From a virus, in the UHGV virus genome UHGV-0314203: a DNA stretch of 32,844 nt; one strand, 5' to 3'. Shown in pieces: positions 6,360 through 16,751 of the stretch. The translations under genes and the position numbers were made by a program. Position 1 is the first letter of the stretch; the number at the start of each line of letters is the position of its first letter. The notes under the pieces were generated by a model that was given only the letters and a program-made list of their open reading frames with translations, ran no database searches and was not told the origin of the DNA.

Positions 6360-6586
6360 TGGCTGATGCAATGGATCTCGTACAGCAGCGCGTTGAAGAA
6401 AAACGCCAGCGCCACATCCGTGCTGCCCGTGCCAAAACGCCGGGCGTGTCCCGCGTGCTTTGCATTGAGTGTGAAGCGCCAATTCCACCAGCACGCCGCC
6501 GCGCCATTCCGGGAGTGCAGCTTTGCATTACCTGTCAGGAAATAGCAGAGCTGAAAGGTAAACATTACAACGGAGGTGCTGTATGA
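6359..6586 (+). CDS. TraR/DksA-family C4 zinc-finger protein
   Basis: 75 aa with CIECEAPIP…CITCQ (CxxC-N17-CxxC), as in phage/plasmid TraR-type proteins. Confidence 0.7.
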   Translation: MADAMDLVQQRVEEKRQRHIRAARAKTPGVSRVLCIECEAPIPPARRRAIPGVQLCITCQEIAELKGKHYNGGAV

Positions 6587-7440
6587 GCACCATCCTGAAA
6601 TGGGCGGGAAATAAAACCGCAATTATGTCCGAACTGAAAAAACACCTTCCTGCTGGCCCGCGACTGGTTGAACCTTTCGCGGGTTCCTGTGCAGTGATGA
6701 TGGAGACGGATTACCCCAGCTATCTGGTTGCGGATATTAATCCTGATTTAATCAACCTCTATAAAAAGGTTGCCGCTGATTGTGAATCGTTTATATCTCG
6801 CGCCAGAGTTTTATTTGAGAACGCAAGCAGGGAGATGGATTATTACAACATAAGGCAGGAGTTTAATTACTCAACTGAAATTACTGATTTCATGAAAGCG
6901 GTATATTTCCTGTATCTCAATCGTCACGGTTACCGTGGTTTATGTCGCTATAACAAGAGCGGGCATTTCAACATTCCCTACGGTAATTATAAAAATCCGT
7001 ATTTCCCTGAAAAAGAAATTCGCGAATTTGCAGAAAAAGCCCAGCGAGCAACGTTTATCTGCGCCAGCTTTGATGAAACGCTGGCGATGTTGAAGGCGGG
7101 GGATGTGGTGTATTGCGATCCGCCGTATGACGGCACGTTTTCCGGTTATCACACTGACGGCTTCACTGAAGATGACCAGTATCACCTGGCATCCGTTCTT
7201 GAACATCGGTCATCAGAAGGACATCCGGTCATTGTTTCTAACAGTGACACATCCCTGATCCGTTCGCTGTATCGCAATTTTATTCACCACTACATCAAGG
7301 CAAAACGCAGCATCGGTGTGGCAGCTGGCGAGGGTAAATCAGCAACAGAAATCATTGCTGTTTCCGGGCCGCGCTGCTGGGTGGGATTTGATTATTCGCG
7401 TGGCGTGGACAGTTCTGCCGTGTACGGAGTACGTGCATGA
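6583..7440 (+). CDS. dam: DNA adenine (N6) methyltransferase, Dam-like orphan methylase
   Basis: 285 aa; N-terminal LKWAGNK…FAGSCAV (AdoMet-binding) and catalytic DPPY (YCDPPYDG) motifs. Confidence 0.85.
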
Positions 7441-9851
7441 GTCATGCCGATATGAACAACTGCTGCGGCTTTAACGAGGCTGCCGCAGCATTCTCATGGA
7501 ACAGCCCGAAAAAGGCCATTAACCCTTATCTGGACCCGGCGGAAGTTGCGCCGGTTTCTGCGCTTTCAAACCTGATCACTCTGTACGCTGCCGATAACGA
7601 GCAGGAACAACTGCGCCGCGAGGCACTGAGTGATCAGGTCTGGGAGCGTTATTTCTTTAATGAATCCCGTGATCCTGTCCAGCGCGAAATGGAGCAGGAT
7701 AAGCTAATTAGCCGGGCAAAGCTGGCGCATGAGCAGCAGCGTTTTAATCCAGACATGGTCATTCTGGCAGATGTCAACGCCCAGCCTTCCCATATCAGCA
7801 AGCCGCTGATGCAACGTATTAAATACTTCAGCAATCTGGGCAGGCCAAAGGCTTATTCCCGCTATTTGCGTGAGACGATTAAGCCATGCCTGGAACGACT
7901 GGAGCATGTACGCGACAGCCAGCTATCTGCATCTTTTCGTTTTATGGCAAGCCATGAAGGGCTGGACGGTCTGCTGATCCTGCCTGAAATGAGTCAGGAT
8001 CAGGTGAAACGCCTGTCCACCCTTGTCGCTGCGCATATGAGCATGTGTCTTGATGCCGCTTGTGGTGATTTGTACGCCTCCGATGATGTTAAGCCGGAAG
8101 AAATCCGCAAGACATGGGAAAAGGTGGCAGCAGAAACCCTGCGACTGGATGTCATACCACCTGCGTTTGAGCAACTCCGCCGGAAAAGAAACCGCCGCAA
8201 ACCTGTGCCCTATGAACTCATTCCGGGTTCGCTGGCGCGTATGTTGTGCGCCGACTGGTGGTACCGGAAATTATGGAAGATGCGTTGCGAATGGCGGGAA
8301 GAGCAGTTGCGTGCTGTCTGTCTGGTCAGCAAAAAAGCATCTCCCTATGTCAGCTATGAAGCCGTGATGCATAAACGTGAGCAGCGCCGTAAGTCGCTGG
8401 AGTTTTTCCGTTCTCATGAACTGGTGAACGAAGACGGCGACACGCTGGACATGGAGGATGTGGTAAACGCCAGCAGCAGCAACCCGGCGCATCGCCGCAA
8501 TGAGATGATGGCCTGCGTTAAAGGTCTGGAGCTTATCGCGGAAATGCGTGGTGACTGCGCCGTTTTCTACACCATCACCTGTCCGTCACGTTTCCATTCC
8601 ACGCTAAATAACGGCAGGCCAAACCTGACCTGGACCAACGCGACAGTAAGACAAAGCAGCGATTATCTGGTCGGCATGTTTGCTGCATTTCGTAAGGCTA
8701 TGCACAAAGCCGGATTGCGCTGGTATGGCGTGCGGGTGGCTGAGCCGCATCATGACGGTACAGTTCACTGGCACCTGTTGTGTTTTATGCGCAAAAAAGA
8801 TCGCCGCGCCATTACTGCTTTGTTGCGTAAGTTTGCCATTCGTGAAGACCGCGAGGAGCTGGGGAATAACACGGGACCACGCTTTAAGTCTGAGTTGATT
8901 AACCCGCGCAAAGGAACGCCGACAAGCTACATCGCGAAATATATCAGCAAGAACATTGACGGGCGTGGTCTGGCTGGCGAGATCAGCAAGGAAACGGGTA
9001 AATCTCTGCGTGATAACGCTGAATACGTGAATGCCTGGGCGTCTTTGCATCGTGTTCAGCAATTCCGCTTCTTTGGCATTCCGGGGCGCCAGGCTTACCG
9101 TGAACTGCGATTGCTGGCTGGTCAGGCGGCAAGGCAACAGGGTGACAAAAAAGCAGGTGCGCCGGTACTGGATAACCCGCGCCTTGATGCAATCCTGGCT
9201 GCTGCTGATGCTGGTTGTTTTGCCACCTACATCATGAAGCAGGGCGGCGTACTGGTTCCCCGCAAATATCACCTCATCAGAACTGCTTATGAAATTAACG
9301 AAGAGCCGACCGCCTATGGCGATCACGGCATTCGTATTTATGGCATCTGGTCACCCATTGCAGAGGGCAAGATCTGCACTCATGCCGTGAAGTGGAAAAT
9401 GGTTCGTAAGGCCGTTGACGTTCAGGAGGCGGCAGCCGACCAGGGCGCTTGCGCCCCTTGGACTCGTGGCAATAACTGTCCCCTTGCTGAAAATTTGAAC
9501 CAACAAGGGAAAGACAAATCAGCTGATGGGGATACCAGGACGGACATTACCCGCATGGATGACAAGGAGTTGCACGATTACCTGCACAGTATGAGCAAAA
9601 AAGAGCGCCGGGAACTGGCTGCAAGGTTACGCCTGGTGAAGCCGAAACGGCGTAAAGACTACAAACAGCGAATTACAGACCATCAGCGACAGCAACTCGT
9701 CTATGAACTGAAGTCCAGAGGATTTGATGGCAGCGAGAAAGAGGTCGATTTACTCCTTCGCGGCGGCAGTATTCCGTCAGGAGCAGGCCTGCGTATCTTC
9801 TATCGGAACCAGCGTTTGCAGGAAGATGATAAGTGGCGAAACCTGTATTAA
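7437..9851 (+). CDS. A: replication initiation endonuclease, P2 gene A type
   Basis: 804 aa, the largest early ORF, at the position of P2 A / 186 A; the internal minus-strand ORFs are antisense artefacts. Confidence 0.8.
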
Positions 9852-9945
9852 TTACGCGGGTTAACAATTCGTGCTCTTAATAATACTAGGCATATCAGGC
9901 TGATGAACGTAAAAAAACGTTTTACATCAGTAAGATTATTATATA

Positions 9946-9961
9946 CTGTAAATATAAACAG
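9946..9961 (+). promoter_or_regulatory. LexA (SOS) box CTGT-N8-ACAG (ctgtaaatataaacag)
   Basis: Perfect CTGT/ACAG half-sites with an 8-nt AT-rich spacer, about 45 nt upstream of the ORF at 10005. Confidence 0.6.
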
Positions 9962-10004
9962 TGGTTAAGTATACAGTATTGCTTGTGGTGTCATAGGAGG
10001 AAAG

Positions 10005-10193
10005 ATGCAGGACTATTTTTTGGAGTCTTTGAAGCTCCAGCGCATTGATTTTTTTCTTAAGCTTGTAGCGGCTAGTGAGTGTAGTGATGAAGAGAAGGGG
10101 CTGGCTTTGCAGTGGGTTTCTGAACTAACAGATGAACTCATGGCAAAAATCAGAACCCACGAATACAACCGCTCAATGGATGTCATCAGCTGA
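10005..10193 (+). CDS. small hypothetical protein (62 aa), first gene of the SOS-controlled pair
   Basis: ATG 10005 with AGGAGG upstream (tcataggaggaaag-ATG); directly downstream of the LexA box. Confidence 0.45.
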   Translation: MQDYFLESLKLQRIDFFLKLVAASECSDEEKGLALQWVSELTDELMAKIRTHEYNRSMDVIS

Positions 10194-10203
10194 GGTGACT
10201 TTT

Positions 10204-10437
10204 ATGCGCATTGAAATAATGATCGATAAAGAGCAGAAGATTAGCCAGTCTACCCTGGACGCCCTTGAATCCGAGCTTTACCGCAATCTGCGCCCCCTGT
10301 ATCCAAAAACGGTAATTCGTATCCGCAAAGGTAGCTCTAACGGTGTGGAACTGACTGGGCTGCAACAGGACGAAGAAAGAAAACAAGTGATGAAAATTAT
10401 GCAGAAGGTGTGGGAAGACGACAGCTGGCTGCATTAA
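10204..10437 (+). CDS. DinI-family protein
   Basis: 77 aa from ATG 10204 (MRIEIMIDKEQ…KIMQKVWEDDSWL), closely following the pattern of E. coli DinI; GAGGTGA 6 nt upstream. Confidence 0.75.
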   Translation: MRIEIMIDKEQKISQSTLDALESELYRNLRPLYPKTVIRIRKGSSNGVELTGLQQDEERKQVMKIMQKVWEDDSWLH

Positions 10438-10572: not shown

Positions 10573-10596
10573 GCCCGCCAGAACTGGCGGGCTTTT
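10573..10596 (+). terminator. rho-independent terminator (gcccgccag / ctggcgggc stem, then TTTT)
   Basis: Perfect inverted repeat followed by a T-run, downstream of the DinI-like gene. Confidence 0.6.
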
Positions 10597-10636
10597 GCGT
10601 AGATCATGCAGGTGCATGAAAACCACTACATAAAGC

Positions 10637-10746: not shown

Positions 10747-10929
10747 ATGGAATACTTAAGCGAAATCATTAGTTTTTTGGCAGGGGCGGGTATCAGTTGG
10801 GCTATTACTTTCAATGTGTATAATTACAAAGTAAAGCAAATTTGTATGAACCAAAGTTCTCCCATTCAAAATGGAAATACAGTGACAAACGGAAGCATTG
10901 TCGGTAGAGATCAGACTAATTCTCACTAA
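10747..10929 (+). CDS. small single-TM protein (60 aa) ending in an NGSIVGxxQTN motif (cassette B, gene 1)
   Basis: ATG 10747 with GGAGG upstream; hydrophobic IISFLAGAGISWAITFNVY; the C-terminal motif recurs at the start of the next ORF. Confidence 0.5.
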   Translation: MEYLSEIISFLAGAGISWAITFNVYNYKVKQICMNQSSPIQNGNTVTNGSIVGRDQTNSH

Positions 10930-10942
10930 GGGAGTGATTGGT

Positions 10943-11509
10943 GTGTTTAGTAAACAGGAGCAATCAGGTAATAGAGTAAGAAATGGGAGTATTGTTGGAG
11001 GGAGTCAAACAAACCACATTACCAATATAGTTCGTAGTAGTAATCGAACTTTAGAGCGTTTGTACCAAAAGTTCTCTCAAGAAGATGGAACTATGGGGGG
11101 GCAGGATTTTTGTGATAAGTTAAAGCACTATTTAGCCTCGGATACCAATCCAGATATAAGAGATTTAGCTACAAAGCTAACTGATAGTGATAGAACTGAA
11201 TTAATTTACTTTGCAACTGCTCTTAAAGAGCAAGCCCTCAAGGCGATAATGAAGTGCCAATCTTCCAAAACCGCACAAGAAATATATGCGTTTATTCTTG
11301 ATAAAATTCATGCTGATTTTATGCTCAAAATTATACCTCTTATTCAGAAGGATGAGGACCGAGTAATTGTTGATGAAAAAATTTCATTGGTATTAGAAAA
11401 TATTAGTGAAATGTTGGGCGATAATTTGTTAAACTTATCCGAAAAGGATCTTTTGGGACTGTTGTATTTTTTAGGCGGAAATTGTTATATAAGGTGGGAT
11501 AAATGTTAG
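10943..11509 (+). CDS. hypothetical mostly alpha-helical protein (about 188 aa; cassette B, gene 2)
   Basis: GTG 10943 with AAGGGAG 8 nt upstream (the ORF track starts it at TTG 10898); N-terminus repeats the NGSIVGxxQTN motif; stop overlaps the next start. Confidence 0.55.
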   Translation: MFSKQEQSGNRVRNGSIVGGSQTNHITNIVRSSNRTLERLYQKFSQEDGTMGGQDFCDKLKHYLASDTNPDIRDLATKLTDSDRTELIYFATALKEQALKAIMKCQSSKTAQEIYAFILDKIHADFMLKIIPLIQKDEDRVIVDEKISLVLENISEMLGDNLLNLSEKDLLGLLYFLGGNCYIRWDKC

Positions 11510-12003
11510 TTTATCATCCAGCATATGATGCCTATCATTGTCTATTTAGAATGATGGCAATTATGGAAAATACAAATCGGCTTGAGATTGATAAGCTTAA
11601 AATATTGGATTTTTACATTTTATTTCCTGCGTTATTAAGTGAAGTGAAAATGCCGAGAGAATTTATTAAAATTAAAAAAACAGCAAAGCTACATCATAAT
11701 GAATATCATGATCCATTGAGTCCAAGGATTATTTTCAAGGAAATGCGTCAAATACAGGATGCAGCACTAAAATGTATGCTTGCGACTGGTTATATTGATT
11801 CTGATGATTTCAGCAATGGTTTTGTCTCAAGAACAAATAAACAATTACCACTGAACCTAGCCTTAGAAATGGGCGTTTTTTTAGAGCGCAAAGAACCGTT
11901 TTCATCTTTCATTACACAAAAGATGGCTAAATTTCATCTGACTGGACCTGATGGATTGAAGGCTAGAACTAAACTTATGGAGTATAGATATGACACTTAT
12001 TAA
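11503..12003 (+). CDS. hypothetical protein (166 aa; cassette B, gene 3)
   Basis: ATG 11503 with AAGGTGGG upstream; overlaps gene 2 by 7 nt and gene 4 by 14 nt (translational coupling). Confidence 0.65.
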   Translation: MLVYHPAYDAYHCLFRMMAIMENTNRLEIDKLKILDFYILFPALLSEVKMPREFIKIKKTAKLHHNEYHDPLSPRIIFKEMRQIQDAALKCMLATGYIDSDDFSNGFVSRTNKQLPLNLALEMGVFLERKEPFSSFITQKMAKFHLTGPDGLKARTKLMEYRYDTY

Positions 12004-13894
12004 GCCTACTCTTATTGTAACCAGATTAACAGTTTTTCAACACGGACATCGTGCATTTGATTGTGAATTCCACAAAGGTGTTAACATTATTCGTGGGCGA
12101 AATAGTTCTGGTAAAACTACAATAATGGATATGCTGGCATTTTCATTGGGAGCTGAAAATATCAGGTGGAAACCACAGGCTTTGAAATGCACTAGAACAA
12201 TCGTTGAAGTGCTTCTCAATAATGAGAAAGCATGCTTTAAACGAGAGATATCTATTGAGCAAATGCGACCTCTTTATATTTATTGGGGAGCGATGGATAA
12301 GGCTTTGAATGCTGGGGAACACGAATGGGAATTATACCCATTCAAGAGAACTGAGAGTAAAATTAGCTTCACCCAAGCTATTTTCAATGCATTATCAATG
12401 CCCTTGGCACAAGGTGCTGGTTCTTCTAATTTGACATTGCATCAGATTTTACGTGTCTTGTATGCAGATCAGCCGTCGTTACATAGTCCAATTTTTCGAT
12501 TTGACAGATTTGATAATGCTCTTACCCGTGAGACGGTAGGTGGATACTTATGTGGTGTTTATAATGATGAGTTGTACAATGCACAACTTTCTTTAAGAGA
12601 TGTTGAGACCGAACTAACAAAGAAAGTTACTGAATTAAAAAGTATCTTTACTGTATTAGGTAGATCTGGACAGGCTCCAGATTTACAAGGTATTGATGAG
12701 AAAATAAAGCATCTAAATAAATTGAGAGCTATTGAGAATGTAAAACTAACAAATAGAGCTATTATAACTAATGAAGAAGGGGCTGATTCTGAAAAACGAA
12801 TGGGTACTATCAGGGAGGAACTCAATGAAGCTAAAAGGAAATTATCTTCCCTAAAAGATAAAATCCAATCTTTGGATTTTGAAATTTCAGATTCTGATAT
12901 GTTTATATCAGAATTAAATGAGCGGCTAAAAAACTTAGAACAGTCTGGAGAAACGCGTGCTATATTTGATAGTATGAATTTTGATTTTTGCCCTAGTTGT
13001 CTTTCCAAAATAGATAAGGCTCATAATGATCATGTTTGTCATCTATGTAAAGTGGAACAATTAGATGATAAAGCTGAAAATCAGTTATTAAGAATGAAAA
13101 ATGAATTAACTCTTCAAATCAAAGAATCTCTTCAATTAATGGATAGAAGAAAAGAAGAGTTGGTAAGATTAAAGCGAGATGTTCCTTTAGCTGAGAGTGA
13201 ATTAAAAAGGCTTGAACAGGATTATTTCAAAGAGTCACACTATTGGTCTTCACCGCAAGAGTTAGCTGTAGGTAAAATATATAGGGAAATTGGACGGCTT
13301 GATGAAGAAATAAAAAGAGCTTATGAAGATAAGAAGCTTATTGTTGTTATTAATGAACTTCAAGAGCGTCGCGATGAACTTCAGGCGGAAAAAAATAGAC
13401 TTGATGATCTTATTGAACTTTATGAAGAAAAAGAGGAAGTTCTTAAAGATAAAATTTATGCTTCAGTGAGCTCAATAGCACAAGAGCTTTTACAAGAAGA
13501 TTTGCCTTTGCAAAAAGAGTTTATGTCTCCTGAAAGTGTGGAGTTTAGTTTTACTGATAATAGCGTTTATGTGAATGGTAGTAAGAACTTTTCTGAAAGT
13601 TCAGCTGTAGTATTAAGGCATATATTCCATTTGGCACTACTTTCAGCAAGTATAGAGAACCACTCAATGCGACTTCCAAGATTTATGATGTTAGATGGGA
13701 TCGACGATGGTGGAATGGAAAAAGAACGGAGTCACAATTTACAGGAAATAATAATTGATGAGTGCTCACGTTATGAACATGATTATCAGTTGATATTTGC
13801 AACATCTGAAATAAATCCCAAATACAGTGAGAGTGAATATATTGTTGGTGAGTATTATTCGCCAGATAATTATTCATTGAAAATAATTGAGTGA
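11990..13894 (+). CDS. SMC/Rad50/RecF-like ABC ATPase with a long coiled coil and paired CxxC motifs (cassette B, gene 4)
   Basis: 634 aa; N-terminal Walker A GRNSSGKTT in an SMC_N-like context; central Glu/Lys/Leu-rich coiled coil; CPSC-x14-CHLC at 12989-13048; C-terminal signature-like FSESS and Walker-B-like FMMLDGIDD. Confidence 0.8.
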   Translation: MTLIKPTLIVTRLTVFQHGHRAFDCEFHKGVNIIRGRNSSGKTTIMDMLAFSLGAENIRWKPQALKCTRTIVEVLLNNEKACFKREISIEQMRPLYIYWGAMDKALNAGEHEWELYPFKRTESKISFTQAIFNALSMPLAQGAGSSNLTLHQILRVLYADQPSLHSPIFRFDRFDNALTRETVGGYLCGVYNDELYNAQLSLRDVETELTKKVTELKSIFTVLGRSGQAPDLQGIDEKIKHLNKLRAIENVKLTNRAIITNEEGADSEKRMGTIREELNEAKRKLSSLKDKIQSLDFEISDSDMFISELNERLKNLEQSGETRAIFDSMNFDFCPSCLSKIDKAHNDHVCHLCKVEQLDDKAENQLLRMKNELTLQIKESLQLMDRRKEELVRLKRDVPLAESELKRLEQDYFKESHYWSSPQELAVGKIYREIGRLDEEIKRAYEDKKLIVVINELQERRDELQAEKNRLDDLIELYEEKEEVLKDKIYASVSSIAQELLQEDLPLQKEFMSPESVEFSFTDNSVYVNGSKNFSESSAVVLRHIFHLALLSASIENHSMRLPRFMMLDGIDDGGMEKERSHNLQEIIIDECSRYEHDYQLIFATSEINPKYSESEYIVGEYYSPDNYSLKIIE

Positions 13895-13959: not shown

Positions 13960-14988
13960 TCAAAGTACGTATGGTCTAAATCTAATTATTTCTATTTCAA
14001 GCCAGTCGTTTAATTGATCAAATCTTTTCTGCATGGGCACCAATTCATTGCGCATAAATACCTTACTAGCCTTCTCCACATCCCCAAACCCCCCAACATT
14101 ATTCGGCAAAATTCCCATCATCTGAGGCGGTACGCGGTGTGCAGCCATCATGTCGTCCCGGCTCACGTTCTTGATGTTCAGAAATTCATCTTTCGCTGCG
14201 ACTTCTGACAACGGGATAATCTGAAGTCCGTCCTTTTTGCCGTTAGGCGAGTACATAAACAGATTGCGGAAGTTGCCTGGACCTTTGGCGCTTTTCATCG
14301 CGTTGCGGAGGTTGTTCACATCCTCCTGATTCTGCGCGGCGTCGGTCATGTACATGATGAAGCCTGCATGACTACCGTTGATGTAATACTTACGGCGGAA
14401 CAGCGTGGCGGATTCGTTGAGCAGGGCGGATGGAATGGCAGAAAGATAGCCGGGCAGGCCGTAGATCTCCTGGTTGATGTCCGGTTCCATCAGATGAAAA
14501 ATGCTGCCTTTCGTGAACTGATACGGCTGGGTTGTCATACCGTATTGCACAAACCAGTAGGTATCCAGGTCTAACCCGCGTCGGGTGTATTTTGCCAGCG
14601 CAGGCTCAAGGGCGATAACTTCACCGAATCGGTTCGTGCGTTTCTCCAGGTAGGCGTTACCAAATACCAGATAGTCCTGCACAAAACGCGAAAAAGCCTG
14701 TTGGCTGAGCAGCGGATGAGGGATATAGGTACTGGTCAGAATGTTGCACTTTACTGCAATCGGGGAACTGTGATGCACGGCAGCGCGGAAGGTGCGCGCC
14801 AGTCCGTCAAAGCTGACGGGAGGCTCATACCAGCGATCTGTCTGAACACATTCCACATAGTCCAGCAGTTCGCGGCGGTCAAGTACTGGAACGGGATCAC
14901 CGAAGCTGAATGCTTCGGCTGAAGTCTGGTTTTTATGCTGGATCTGATTCGTCGCCGCAGTGCGGTTCTTCTTACTCTTTCCCATCAA
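13960..14988 (-). CDS. Q: portal protein (P2 gpQ-like)
   Basis: 342 aa, size and position as P2 Q; stop overlaps the terminase gene start. Confidence 0.85.
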   Translation of the reverse strand: MMGKSKKNRTAATNQIQHKNQTSAEAFSFGDPVPVLDRRELLDYVECVQTDRWYEPPVSFDGLARTFRAAVHHSSPIAVKCNILTSTYIPHPLLSQQAFSRFVQDYLVFGNAYLEKRTNRFGEVIALEPALAKYTRRGLDLDTYWFVQYGMTTQPYQFTKGSIFHLMEPDINQEIYGLPGYLSAIPSALLNESATLFRRKYYINGSHAGFIMYMTDAAQNQEDVNNLRNAMKSAKGPGNFRNLFMYSPNGKKDGLQIIPLSEVAAKDEFLNIKNVSRDDMMAAHRVPPQMMGILPNNVGGFGDVEKASKVFMRNELVPMQKRFDQLNDWLEIEIIRFRPYVL

Positions 14989-16751
14989 AAAATCTCCACA
15001 ATATTGCTGGTATTGGCGGATTCGCCCTGCAGCGGTTCGTTAAACAGTGCGTGCATCGTTGCCCAGGCCAGATCGGCGTGGCTGGCTTCTTCGCTGCGGC
15101 TGGCTTCATAGGTCGGGCGGTTGCCACTGGCGGTGGTGGCGCGACGTATTGCCATAAAGGACTGCGCTATGTCGGTGTGTCCGGCGTCAAACTCCAGACG
15201 GCGGTGGCTGATAATGTCGTAGGCCTTGAGTACCAGGGCGTTTTTAACGTTGGGGTTGTAGACAAACTCCCGGACGGCAGGAAAAAACGCTTTCACGTTC
15301 TCGTAAACCCCGTGACCAACGCCGGTTGAGTCGATACCGATATAGGTCACGTTGTACTGTTCGGTCAGTTTTTTGATGGCGTCAGCCTGGGCGCGGAAGT
15401 CCATCCCGCGCCACTGGTGACGCTCAAGAATGCGGAACTTACCACCCGGCACGGCTGGCGGTGCCACCACCACGCATCCGGCGCTGTCGCCGTTTTGCGT
15501 GCCTTTTGCCGGGTCATAACCGATCCACACTTCGCGCCAGCCAAACGGGCGCAGCGCCAGTGCATGAAAGTCGGTCCAGACTTCCCAACTGTCCACCATG
15601 CACGCCTGCAGCTCGCTGAGCGGAAACACGGACGCGAGATCGTCCACAAACTCGCACATCAGCAGGTTCTGGTATTCGTCCGGGCTGTACTCCATGCGTA
15701 GCTGGTCGAGGTCGAACAGGTTACAGCCGCCGCGCACCGCATCTTCCACGGTGACTATCTGGCGGTATTGCCCGTCTGCGCACAGCAGGCCGGGGGCCAG
15801 ATTGCTGTGGGACAGGTCGATGTCCACCTTATCGGCTTTGTTGCGCCCACGGTTGAACAGCGCACCGGACCAGAACGGATAAGCACTGTGTGTCAGACTG
15901 GATGGCGTGGAAAAATAGGTTTGTCGCCATTTTTTGTGAATAGCCATACCGGAAGCCACTTTGCGCAGCTCCTGGAATTTTGGTATCCAGAAATATTCAT
16001 CCAGATACAGGTTGCCGTGATAACTCTGGGCCGTGCGGGCATTGGTGCCGAGGAAATACAGTGTGGCCCCGTTGGGAAGCACCATCGGATCGCCTTTCAG
16101 CTCCACCTCTACTTCTTTGGCAAAGTCGATGATGTACTGTTTGAAGACGTGGGCCTGTGCCTTACTGGCAGAAAGGAAAATCTGGTTACGTCCGGTCAGC
16201 AGGGCGTCAATCAGGGCTTCACGGGCAAAATAGAAGGTCGCGCCGATCTGGCGTGACTTCAGCAGGTTGCGGATGCGGTTGGTTTTTCCGGCTTCCCACC
16301 AGTGGCGCTGGTAGTTGAACATGGAGGAATGGAAGATTTCTTCCAGCTTCTCAATCTGTTCATCGGTGAAAACATTCTTTTCCGGCTGACGGCGTGGGCC
16401 TTTGTTGCGGTTGGCGACGTTAGGGTTTAAGTCGGCTTCGTTGCCGCCATTGTTAAACTTGCCGATCCGCGCGTGGCGCTCAGACTGGCGCGCCAGCAGG
16501 TCAATCTCTTTGAAATCTTTCCCTTCTTTGTGCTCCTTCATAATGAGCTGGCAGTAGCGTGCGGCGGTGGTGAGCTGCATCTGATCCAGCGGCCCATAGT
16601 CACCCCACTTGTCGCGTTTTTTCCAGCTGTGAACGGTTGCAACTTTCTCGCCCAGCATTTCAGCAATGCGGGCTACGCGGTATCCCTGAAAGTACAGCAG
16701 CATGGCCTGCCGACGGGGATCGAGATCTGCGGGTGTCAGTGTGGTGTTCAT
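14985..16751 (-). CDS. P: terminase large (ATPase) subunit (P2 gpP-like)
   Basis: 588 aa, size and position as P2 P, divergent from the capsid operon. Confidence 0.85.
   Translation of the reverse strand: MNTTLTPADLDPRRQAMLLYFQGYRVARIAEMLGEKVATVHSWKKRDKWGDYGPLDQMQLTTAARYCQLIMKEHKEGKDFKEIDLLARQSERHARIGKFNNGGNEADLNPNVANRNKGPRRQPEKNVFTDEQIEKLEEIFHSSMFNYQRHWWEAGKTNRIRNLLKSRQIGATFYFAREALIDALLTGRNQIFLSASKAQAHVFKQYIIDFAKEVEVELKGDPMVLPNGATLYFLGTNARTAQSYHGNLYLDEYFWIPKFQELRKVASGMAIHKKWRQTYFSTPSSLTHSAYPFWSGALFNRGRNKADKVDIDLSHSNLAPGLLCADGQYRQIVTVEDAVRGGCNLFDLDQLRMEYSPDEYQNLLMCEFVDDLASVFPLSELQACMVDSWEVWTDFHALALRPFGWREVWIGYDPAKGTQNGDSAGCVVVAPPAVPGGKFRILERHQWRGMDFRAQADAIKKLTEQYNVTYIGIDSTGVGHGVYENVKAFFPAVREFVYNPNVKNALVLKAYDIISHRRLEFDAGHTDIAQSFMAIRRATTASGNRPTYEASRSEEASHADLAWATMHALFNEPLQGESANTSNIVEIF

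What the first reader, a model, noticed from the sequence alone, without database searches (positions are those of the whole stretch)
12989..13048. Paired CxxC motifs (CPSC-x14-CHLC) in the middle of the coiled coil: zinc-hook or zinc-ribbon-like element
Seen in sequence: four cysteines in two CxxC pairs sit within the heptad-rich central region of the 634-aa ATPase. Established knowledge: Rad50 and SbcC use a CxxC zinc hook at the coiled-coil apex for dimerisation or tethering. Inference: this protein may dimerise through a zinc-coordinated apex, or carry a compact four-Cys zinc ribbon there.
Basis: partly seen in the sequence, partly recalled or inferred. Interest (0 to 1): 0.5.

Follow-up and report, generated by a model that had tools for sequence, protein, structure and literature searches.

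The report
Two-CxxC zinc apex of Lamassu LmuB
The four cysteines are real and strongly conserved, and they form the zinc-binding tip of the coiled coil of LmuB, the Rad50-like sensor of a Lamassu anti-phage system carried by a P2-like prophage; LmuB proteins with two CxxC motifs have already been described, so this is a known feature whose exact zinc geometry is still unsolved.

Summary
C334-P-S-C337 and C350-H-L-C353 lie at nt 12989-13048 of the 634-aa ORF 11990..13894. The spacer is 12 residues, not 14.

The ORF is LmuB, the SMC/Rad50-like ABC ATPase of a short Lamassu (ABC-3C) system. Upstream lie LmuC (Pfam MC5) and a short LmuA (Pfam CTD9). The cassette has 34.5% GC and sits in the gpA-gpQ defence hotspot of an E. 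coli P2-like prophage.

All four Cys are invariant in 120/120 homologues. Both CxxC motifs are kept in 148/150 distant cluster representatives. AlphaFold2 puts them in a 32-residue non-helical cap between the two coiled-coil arms, but at low confidence. The best fold matches are solved Lamassu LmuB chains, then Rad50.

The literature already describes an LmuB zinc hook that is required for defence in one system. It also records short LmuBs with zero, one or two CxxC copies. The feature is therefore already known.

Still open is whether the two knuckles form one Cys4 mini zinc ribbon within each protomer (my preferred reading, about 0.55) or zinc bridges between protomers.

Side finding: a conserved, mostly unannotated small membrane-protein gene precedes the effector-less LmuA.

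The parts
12989..13000 (+). Knuckle 1: C334-P-S-C337. Family consensus is F-x-[FY]-C-P-x-C-[LFY], with Pro335 invariant in the A1 alignment of 81 sequences. It corresponds to the 'CPxC' zinc-hook motif of LmuB/Rad50.
   Evidence: the review PMC10586767 gives the LmuB hook motif as 'CPxCG or similar'.
13037..13048 (+). Knuckle 2: C350-H-L-C353. Family consensus is C-x-L-C-[KTG]. This is the second CxxC copy.
12974..13069 (+). Non-helical apex cap (aa 329-360) between the two coiled-coil arms; it holds both knuckles.
   Evidence: AF2 full-length model: no helix at 329-360, pLDDT 52-59. Fragment model: pLDDT 61-66, with isolated beta-bridge residues at 333/340 and 349/356 flanking each CxxC.
12566..12973 (+). 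Ascending coiled-coil arm (aa 193-328), with breaks near 224-234 and 255-266.
   Evidence: Heptad-type periodicity for aa 267-328, p=0.0055.
13070..13495 (+). Descending coiled-coil arm (aa 361-502), with a break at 417-421.
   Evidence: Periodicity for aa 361-416, p=0.035.
11990..13894 (+). lmuB: a 634-aa SMC/Rad50-like ABC ATPase. Walker A is G36-x4-G41-K42-T43 (nt 12095-12118). The signature-like motif is F534-S-E-S-S538 (nt 13589-13603). Walker B is F565-M-M-L-D569 followed by G570 (nt 13682-13699).
   Evidence: PADLOC LmuB models, E=4.5e-43; Pfam AAA_15/SMC_N/AAA_23; Foldseek top hits 9hqu, 9uxh, 9hqx, 9nyg and 9ux7; motif residues.
11503..12003 (+). lmuC: a 166-aa ABC-3C middle component 5.
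   Evidence: Pfam PF20291 MC5, E=2e-57. PGAP names it 'ABC-three component system middle component 5' in a 99.7% identical E. coli locus.
10943..11509 (+). lmuA: 188 aa from the GTG at 10943 (203 aa if read from the TTG at 10898). It consists of the CTD9 domain plus a short N-terminal 'QSGNxVxNGSIVGG' motif; no enzymatic effector domain was detected.
   Evidence: Pfam PF20285 CTD9, E=5e-30, covering aa 89-200 of the 203-aa reading; PGAP start; alignment A4.
10747..10929 (+). Small upstream ORF of 60 aa. It has one predicted transmembrane helix and a C-terminal 'NGNTVTNGSIVGRD' motif. It is conserved as a fourth gene and is not annotated by PGAP.
   Evidence: gene order in L003, L006, L008, L010, L011 and L012.
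13960..16751 (-). P2-type portal (gpQ) and terminase ATPase (gpP) genes. They form the right border of the prophage defence hotspot; gpA (7437..9851, +) is the left border.
   Evidence: PGAP annotation of the 99.7% identical locus; hotspot defined in PMC9122126. GC is 34.5% in the cassette against 51-54% in the flanks.

Best explanation
The element is the zinc-binding tip (the 'zinc-hook region') of LmuB. LmuB is the SMC/Rad50-like ABC ATPase that acts as DNA sensor in a short Lamassu (ABC-3C) anti-phage system, here carried as cargo in the gpA-gpQ hotspot of an E. coli P2-like prophage.

Knuckle 1 (C-P-x-C) corresponds to the Rad50/SbcC hook motif. Knuckle 2 (C-x-L-C), 11-13 residues later, is a second copy typical of this LmuB clade.

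My preferred mechanism is inferred, not shown. The two knuckles of one protomer together bind one Zn(II) through four cysteines, forming a mini zinc ribbon. This ribbon caps and stiffens the hairpin turn of the antiparallel coiled coil. The two caps of an LmuB dimer then pack against each other and against LmuC (MC5) and the LmuA CTD9 domain. In solved Lamassu complexes that region is where the effector subunit is held in check until LmuB senses DNA ends.

On this reading zinc is a structural cofactor within each protomer, not a bridge between protomers.

Confidence by part: about 0.9 that this is the LmuB apex zinc module; about 0.55 that coordination is within one protomer.
For: Identity of the system:
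- PADLOC LmuB E=4.5e-43.
- MC5 E=2e-57 and CTD9 E=5e-30 in the two upstream genes.
- Foldseek top hits are solved LmuB chains 9hqu, 9uxh, 9hqx, 9nyg and 9ux7 (E 6e-18 to 1e-13), followed by Rad50.
- PGAP names in a 99.7% identical locus flanked by gpA and the portal gene.

Position and conservation:
- Helices 193-328 and 361-502, with the four Cys in the non-helical cap 329-360.
- Four Cys invariant in 120/120 homologues; both CxxC in 148/150 representatives.

Function of the hook region in relatives:
- Defence by Salmonella LmuACB required the LmuB zinc hook, and LmuA/LmuC sit next to the hook region (bioRxiv 10.1101/2025.03.14.643221).

For coordination within one protomer:
- Four Cys lie within 20 residues as two knuckles, with a tightly conserved 11-13 residue spacer (251/263).
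- Indels fall in the middle of the spacer, as expected for a hairpin loop.
- The four Cys are kept together in nearly every family member.
- Sub-threshold Pfam hits that span both knuckles all go to zinc-ribbon families: DZR, DZR_2, Zn_Ribbon_TF, Zn_ribbon_6 (E 0.005-0.2). None goes to Rad50_zn_hook.
- The fragment model has beta-bridge residues flanking each CxxC.
- V. cholerae LmuB has no CxxC at all yet is present as two protomers in the LmuA1B2C1 complex, so a zinc bridge is not needed for LmuB pairing (PMC12663957).
- From established chemistry, chelation by four nearby ligands in one chain is favoured over chelation between chains.
Against: - The apex is the least confident part of both AF2 models (pLDDT 52-66). 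No coordinates were available, so Cys-Cys distances could not be measured.
- Only monomers could be modelled.
- Pfam zinc-ribbon hits are all below gathering thresholds.
- Fold searches with the apex fragment gave nothing significant.
- The authors who catalogued two-copy LmuBs treat both copies as 'zinc-hook' motifs and suggest 'divergent dimerization strategies', which leaves zinc bridges between protomers open.
- No metal analysis exists for any two-copy LmuB. Zinc density was not resolved even in the solved one-copy LmuB structures.
Confidence: 0.55

Rival explanations
1. Zinc hooks between protomers, of the Rad50 type but doubled. Two zinc ions would bridge the two LmuB protomers. Either the pairs are like-with-like (CPSC-A + CPSC-B and CHLC-A + CHLC-B) or they are swapped (CPSC-A + CHLC-B and the reverse). 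This would give a stronger or asymmetric zinc-dependent dimerisation latch.
For: Knuckle 1 keeps the Rad50/LmuB hook motif C-P-x-C at the coiled-coil apex. In solved one-copy LmuB structures the hook motifs of the two protomers are closely juxtaposed. PMC12663957 counts the second motif as a second zinc-hook copy and suggests divergent dimerisation strategies. Rad50 hook chains 1l8d and 7zqy appear among the nine Foldseek hits for the apex fragment, though not significantly (E 2.9-7.8).
Against: Four ligands within 20 residues of one chain normally close on one metal. No hit to Pfam Rad50_zn_hook even at E<=10. The apex is a 32-residue non-helical cap, not a short hook loop. LmuB without any CxxC is still present as two protomers in the V. 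cholerae complex.
Confidence: 0.3
2. A nucleic-acid-binding or partner-binding zinc ribbon with a sensing role. The Cys4 module would fold within one protomer, but its main job would be to touch DNA or RNA, or to read out a phage cue, rather than to stabilise the apex. This would resemble the coiled-coil-plus-zinc-ribbon proteins of the HP0958/CT398/MSMEG_4306 group.
Against: The 5y05 and 4ilo matches rest mostly on coiled coil and are not significant for the ribbon itself. In solved Lamassu-DNA complexes DNA is described at the LmuB head/LmuC side, while the apex contacts LmuC and the LmuA CTD. The spacer and flanks are not conserved as a basic surface.
Confidence: 0.1
3. No metal site. The cysteines would form disulfides or act as a redox switch, or be conserved for another reason.
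For: No direct evidence of metal for this protein. Zinc density is unresolved in the solved LmuB structures.
Against: The protein is cytoplasmic. The paired CxxC pattern with an invariant Pro and hydrophobic flanks is the classic zinc-knuckle signature. The four Cys are conserved across clusters below 50% identity. The motif corresponds in position to the Rad50 hook.
Confidence: 0.05

Closest known systems
Short Lamassu LmuB with two CxxC 'zinc-hook' copies (Haudiquet et al., PNAS 2025, PMC12663957)
   Same: Short (~600-650 aa) LmuB with a prototypical Walker A, a deviant Walker B and an apex carrying two CxxC motifs. It is partnered with LmuC and an LmuA CTD. The LmuA lacks an effector domain, as in their 'clade O'.
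   Different: I could not check clade assignment against their tree because the supplement is not held. The residue after the Walker B Asp is G here and N/G/T/S across the clade, whereas they give Q/S/T/E. They do not describe the small upstream membrane-protein gene in the text I could read.
Solved Lamassu LmuB chains: Salmonella LmuACB (9hqu, 9hqx), type II LmuACB (9uxh), V. cholerae LmuABC-DNA (9nyg), LmuAB-DNA complex (9ux7)
   Same: Best structural matches to the full-length model (Foldseek E 6e-18 to 1e-13). Same head / folded coiled coil / apex layout. The breaks in the modelled arms (about 255-266 and 417-421) lie close to the folding point reported for the Salmonella protein (aa 266-276 and 416-432).
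   Different: Only 12-16% sequence identity, and no hit by sequence search. The papers report a hook motif in the Bacillus LmuB (one canonical motif, CQYC) and in the Salmonella LmuB, and none in the V. cholerae LmuB. No solved LmuB is described as carrying two CxxC.
Rad50 / SbcC zinc hook
   Same: A C-P-x-C motif at the apex of an antiparallel coiled coil inserted in an ABC ATPase head. Rad50 chains are the next-best fold matches after LmuB.
   Different: Rad50 has one CxxC per chain, and zinc is shared by two chains. Here there are two CxxC per chain within a 32-residue non-helical cap. There is no match to Pfam Rad50_zn_hook. The coiled coil is much shorter.
Coiled-coil hairpin plus C4 zinc-ribbon proteins (MSMEG_4306 5y05, CT398 4ilo, HP0958 group)
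   Same: An antiparallel coiled coil joined to a CxxC...CxxC zinc ribbon. There is a marginal profile hit to 5y05 (E=0.0015).
   Different: Those proteins are not ABC ATPases. From my recollection of them, the ribbon follows the coiled coil at the C-terminus rather than sitting as an insert at its turn. The similarity is not significant for the ribbon part.

Membership tests
Lamassu LmuB (short type) | ABC ATPase head with Walker A Gx4GK[S/T] | tested here: met
   G36-R-N-S-S-G41-K42-T43. K42 is present in every representative that has a residue at this column (147; the other 4 rows are gaps).
Lamassu LmuB (short type) | Head split by an antiparallel coiled-coil insert; fold similar to solved LmuB | tested here: met
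   AF2 model with pLDDT 82 and helices 193-328 / 361-502. Foldseek top hits are LmuB chains 9hqu, 9uxh, 9hqx, 9nyg and 9ux7.
Lamassu LmuB (short type) | Match to curated LmuB profiles | tested here: met
   PADLOC LmuB PDLC03862 E=4.5e-43, PDLC03859 2.8e-42, PDLC03863 6.9e-38, nearly full length.
Lamassu LmuB (short type) | Operon with LmuC (middle component) and an LmuA carrying an ABC-3C C-terminal domain | tested here: met
   MC5 E=2e-57 and CTD9 E=5e-30 in the two overlapping upstream genes. The same order occurs in six other loci.
Lamassu LmuB (short type) | Deviant Walker B hhhhD[Q/S/T/E] (PMC12663957) | tested here: inconclusive
   FMMLD569 is followed by G570. Across 150 representatives the residue is N 93, G 31, T 9, S 7. 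It is deviant (no Glu) but mostly outside the published residue set.
Lamassu system (complete, as usually defined) | LmuA with an N-terminal enzymatic effector domain (nuclease, lipase, Sir2, protease and others) | tested here: not met
   LmuA is 188-203 aa. Only CTD9 is detected, with no PADLOC LmuA hit. [quoted passage not shown]
Lamassu system | Protection against phage or plasmid | not testable with these tools
   Needs plaque or plasmid-stability assays. A similar effector-less variant gave no protection against one 28-phage panel.
Rad50/SbcC-type zinc hook | CxxC (usually CPxC) at the apex of the antiparallel coiled coil | tested here: met
   C334-P-S-C337 lies in the cap between the two arms. 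Pro335 is invariant in A1.
Rad50/SbcC-type zinc hook | Match to Pfam Rad50_zn_hook (PF04423) | tested here: not met
   No hit at E<=10 for four apex fragments; only sub-threshold zinc-ribbon families were returned.
Rad50/SbcC-type zinc hook | One zinc shared by two CxxC from two chains | not testable with these tools
   Only monomer models could be run and no coordinates are returned. Needs multimer modelling with Zn, metal analysis or a structure.
Cys4 zinc ribbon | Two CxxC knuckles separated by a short hairpin, with hydrophobic flanks | tested here: met
   The pattern is F-x-[FY]-C-P-x-C-[LFY]-x-x-[LIV]-x(7-9)-C-x-L-C-[KTG]-x-x-[LIV]. The spacer is 11-13 residues in 251/263 sequences, and indels fall mid-spacer.
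Cys4 zinc ribbon | Significant match to a curated zinc-ribbon family, or a confident ribbon fold | tested here: inconclusive
   DZR, DZR_2, Zn_Ribbon_TF and Zn_ribbon_6 hit at E 0.005-0.2, all below gathering scores. AF2 apex pLDDT is 52-66 with only isolated bridge residues. Fold searches were uninformative.
Cys4 zinc ribbon | One Zn bound by four Cys of one chain | not testable with these tools
   Needs metal stoichiometry on the isolated apex, or a structure.

The most novel reading that the evidence does not exclude
In this large LmuB clade the ancestral Rad50-type hook, which bridges two protomers, may have been converted into a self-contained Cys4 zinc ribbon. LmuB pairing would then be zinc-independent. 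The ribbon would serve as the docking platform for LmuC-MC5 and LmuA-CTD9. The 'missing' effector of these Lamassu systems would be the conserved small membrane protein encoded just upstream, coupled to LmuA through the shared, co-varying 'N-x-x-x-G-D-I-V-G-G-D' motif.
Probability: 0.35. Interest if true: 0.5.

Novelty: already known. Interest (0 to 1): 0.25.

Why it matters
The result places the gene firmly: the cysteines mark a Lamassu LmuB, not an orphan ATPase, and the cassette is prophage-borne defence cargo.

The open point is modest but real. Nobody has shown how an LmuB with two CxxC motifs binds zinc. The answer would say whether SMC-like immune sensors can swap a zinc bridge between chains for a zinc cap within one chain while keeping the same complex architecture.

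That matters for reading the many Lamassu variants and for choosing mutants. It would not change the general picture of Lamassu.

The side observation, a conserved small membrane-protein gene in front of the 'effector-less' LmuA, may be the more useful lead. It offers a testable candidate for the missing effector of that clade.

Tried and rejected
- Sequence search of LmuB against PDB chains (phmmer): no hit at E<=0.01.
- Profile search with alignment A1: only coiled-coil noise and the Rad50/AriA P-loop region. The one suggestive hit, 5y05, is marginal.
- Pfam on apex fragments: only sub-threshold zinc-ribbon hits.
- The structure tool returns no coordinates and takes only monomers. Neither Cys-Cys distances nor a dimer could be examined.
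- tblastn of LmuB against 50,697 deposited phage genomes: no match. The 'phage cargo' statement rests on prophage context only.
- The original ABC-3C classification paper (Krishnan et al. 2020) is not held, nor is the PNAS supplement. Clade labels could not be checked.
- The promoter/terminator scan of the cassette gave no more sites than shuffles.
- The minus-strand ORF 12559..13008, which overlaps the motif, I regard as an antisense reading-frame artefact. The plus-strand protein is conserved end to end in hundreds of homologues, and PGAP annotates no gene there.
Full report
OBSERVATION

ORF 11990..13894 (+) encodes 634 aa. Its translation contains C334-P-S-C337 at nt 12989-13000 and C350-H-L-C353 at nt 13037-13048. 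These are exactly the coordinates given.

The protein has only 9 Cys. In 200,000 shuffles of its own sequence, two CxxC within 30 residues arose at a frequency of 3.3e-4. The pattern is not a composition effect.

WHAT THE GENE IS

- PADLOC profiles for LmuB match almost the whole protein (E=4.5e-43).
- Pfam sees the SMC/Rad50-type P-loop head (AAA_15, SMC_N, AAA_23).
- The two overlapping upstream genes are an ABC-3C middle component 5 (PF20291, E=2e-57; window 11503..12003) and a protein with ABC-3C C-terminal domain 9 (PF20285, E=5e-30; window 10943..11509).
- This is therefore an LmuA-LmuC-LmuB operon, a short Lamassu (ABC-3C) system.

A 99.7% identical locus in E. coli AR_0085 is annotated by PGAP as 'ABC-three component system protein', 'ABC-three component system middle component 5' and 'ATP-binding protein'. 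It lies between the P2-type replication endonuclease (gpA) with a DinI-like gene on one side and the portal and terminase genes on the other. That interval is the gpA-gpQ defence hotspot of P2-like prophages (PMC9122126).

The cassette is present in only 4 of 5426 complete E. coli genomes. Its GC content is 34.5%, against 51-54% in the flanking phage genes. No deposited phage genome carries a homologue.

CONSERVATION

- A word-indexed search returned 561 homologues. The best 120 (53-100% identity, many genera) keep all four Cys without exception.
- A profile search over 1.84 billion cluster representatives found 415 proteins at E<=1e-30. Of the best 150, which are mutually below 50% identity, 148 keep both CxxC motifs. 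The two exceptions lost only the fourth Cys.
- The family pattern is F-x-[FY]-C-P-x-C-[LFY]-x-x-[LIV]-x(7-9)-C-x-L-C-[KTG]-x-x-[LIV].
- The spacer is 11-13 residues in 251 of 263 full-length sequences. Length changes fall in the middle of the spacer.

STRUCTURE

- The AlphaFold2 model, built from 81 aligned sequences, has mean pLDDT 82. It shows a split ABC head, an ascending helix at 193-328, a descending helix at 361-502 and a non-helical stretch at 329-360 between them.
- The four Cys (334-353) sit in the centre of that cap.
- The arms next to the cap have significant 3.5-residue hydrophobic periodicity.
- Breaks in the arms (255-266 and 417-421) lie close to the coiled-coil folding point reported for Salmonella LmuB.
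- Foldseek against the PDB ranks solved Lamassu LmuB chains first (9hqu, 9uxh, 9hqx, 9nyg, 9ux7; E 6e-18 to 1e-13). One integrative model, 9a6c, ranks fourth among them. Rad50, JetC/MukB and SMC heads follow.
- Sequence identity to these chains is only 12-16%, which explains why sequence searches of the PDB found nothing.
- The cap itself is the weak part: pLDDT 52-59 in the full model and 61-66 in a 100-residue fragment model. The fragment model shows single bridge residues at 333/340 and 349/356, one on each side of each CxxC, as in two zinc knuckles.
- Fold searches with the fragment were uninformative.

LITERATURE

[quoted passage not shown] Defence by Salmonella LmuACB required the hook. 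LmuA and LmuC sit beside the hook region. Zinc density was not resolved (bioRxiv 10.1101/2025.03.14.643221).
- A review gives the motif as 'CPxCG or similar', present in many but not all LmuBs (PMC10586767).
- In the Bacillus LmuAB structure, a canonical CQYC of the two protomers is juxtaposed at the distal end (bioRxiv 10.1101/2025.06.23.660979).
- Most relevant is Haudiquet et al. (PMC12663957). They report that long LmuBs have one CxxC, while short LmuBs have zero, one or two copies, 'suggesting divergent dimerization strategies'. [quoted passage not shown]
- The two-CxxC state is thus already on record. Its structural meaning is not.

MECHANISM

Shown: the position at the apex, the family-wide conservation of four Cys, and membership of LmuB.

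Inferred: zinc binding, and its geometry.

I favour one zinc bound by four Cys of the same chain, forming a mini zinc ribbon that caps the coiled-coil turn. The reasons are:
1. Four ligands within 20 residues, arranged as two knuckles with a fixed short spacer, is the signature of a single-chain Cys4 site.
2. The four Cys are retained together in nearly every member.
3. The only Pfam similarities that span both knuckles are to zinc-ribbon families. They are sub-threshold, and there is none to Rad50_zn_hook.
4. The cap is 32 residues long, not a tight hook loop.
5. V. cholerae LmuB lacks CxxC entirely yet is present as two protomers in its complex, so LmuB pairing does not need a zinc bridge.

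The ribbon would give a rigid surface for apex-apex contact and for docking LmuC-MC5 and LmuA-CTD9. By analogy with the solved complexes, that region is where the effector subunit is sequestered until DNA-end sensing and the ATPase cycle release it.

The main rival is a doubled hook between chains, with two zinc ions shared by two chains, either like-with-like or swapped. I cannot exclude it because only low-confidence monomer models were available. Less likely rivals are a nucleic-acid-binding role for the ribbon (marginal 5y05 hit) and a site with no metal.

COMPARISON AND MEMBERSHIP

- The protein meets the tested LmuB criteria: Walker A, split head with coiled coil, profile match, partner genes and fold.
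- Its Walker B is deviant. Asp569 is followed by Gly, and by N/G/T/S across the clade, which is mostly outside the published Q/S/T/E set.
- The system fails the usual requirement for an enzymatic LmuA effector, as in the published effector-less clade.
- As a Rad50-type hook, it meets the criterion 'CPxC at the apex'. It does not match the Pfam hook model, and it has a second CxxC. The defining zinc shared between chains could not be tested.

NOVELTY AND SCORE

The feature is already known in kind. The exact protein sequence is in public databases. The only open element is the zinc geometry of two-copy LmuBs. Interest is 0.25.

SEEN IN PASSING

A 60-aa ORF (10747..10929) with a Shine-Dalgarno-like GGAGG upstream lies 13 nt before lmuA. 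It encodes one transmembrane helix and a C-terminal 'NGNTVTNGSIVGRD' motif. PGAP does not annotate it.

The same small gene precedes the short CTD9 LmuA in P. aeruginosa, B. pseudomallei, Proteus mirabilis and three metagenomic contigs.

Its tail motif recurs at the N-terminus of LmuA and changes in step with it within each locus. In L012, for example, the two read 'AGGHIAGGNI' and 'AGGHIAGGNI'. This may be the missing effector or a membrane anchor for the 'effector-less' Lamassu clade.

Noticed in passing
window 10747-10929 (+): A 60-aa ORF (MEYLSEIISFLAGAGISWAITFNVYNYK...NGNTVTNGSIVGRDQTNSH) lies 13 nt upstream of lmuA and is not annotated by PGAP. It has a GGAGG upstream, one predicted transmembrane helix and a conserved C-terminal motif. 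A small ORF of the same kind (49-70 aa) precedes the CTD9 LmuA in six other loci: P. aeruginosa L003, B. pseudomallei L006, Proteus mirabilis L008, and metagenomic L010, L011 and L012. It is a candidate fourth component or missing effector of the 'effector-less' Lamassu clade.
   Followed up: partly
window 10943-11010 (+) compared with 10880-10920 (+); L012 513-707 and 712-840: The tail motif of the small protein (N-x-x-x-G-[DSH]-[IM]-[VA]-G-[GR]-[DN]) is repeated at the N-terminus of LmuA and co-varies with it within each locus. Window: 'TNGSIVGRDQTN' and 'RNGSIVGGSQTN'. L012: 'AGGHIAGGNI' in both. This suggests strand pairing between the two proteins, or a split of an ancestral membrane-anchored LmuA.
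   Followed up: partly
window 13682-13699 (+), LmuB aa 565-570: Walker B is FMMLD followed by Gly. Across 150 cluster representatives the residue after the Asp is N (93), G (31), T (9) or S (7). It is not among the four commonest residues as Glu or Gln, so it lies mostly outside the published hhhhD[Q/S/T/E] set. An acidic residue follows two positions later (E in 141, D here). This suggests ATP binding with very slow hydrolysis.
   Followed up: partly
window 10747-13894 compared with flanks 6583-9851 and 13960-16751: The Lamassu cassette has 34.5% GC, against 51-54% in the neighbouring P2-type genes. It occurs in only 4 of 5426 complete E. coli genomes, which points to recently acquired cargo of the gpA-gpQ hotspot.
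   Followed up: yes
window 10575-10600 (+): A GC-rich inverted repeat followed by a T run (ggcccgccagaactggcgggcttttg) lies between the DinI-like gene region and the cassette. It looks like an intrinsic terminator that insulates the cassette from upstream transcription. The simple scan did not list it.
   Followed up: no
L001 5275-5700 (-) = window about 9874-10299 (-): In the near-identical E. coli locus, PGAP annotates a 141-aa hypothetical protein on the minus strand between the DinI-like gene and the Lamassu cassette. It could be further hotspot cargo and was not examined.
   Followed up: no
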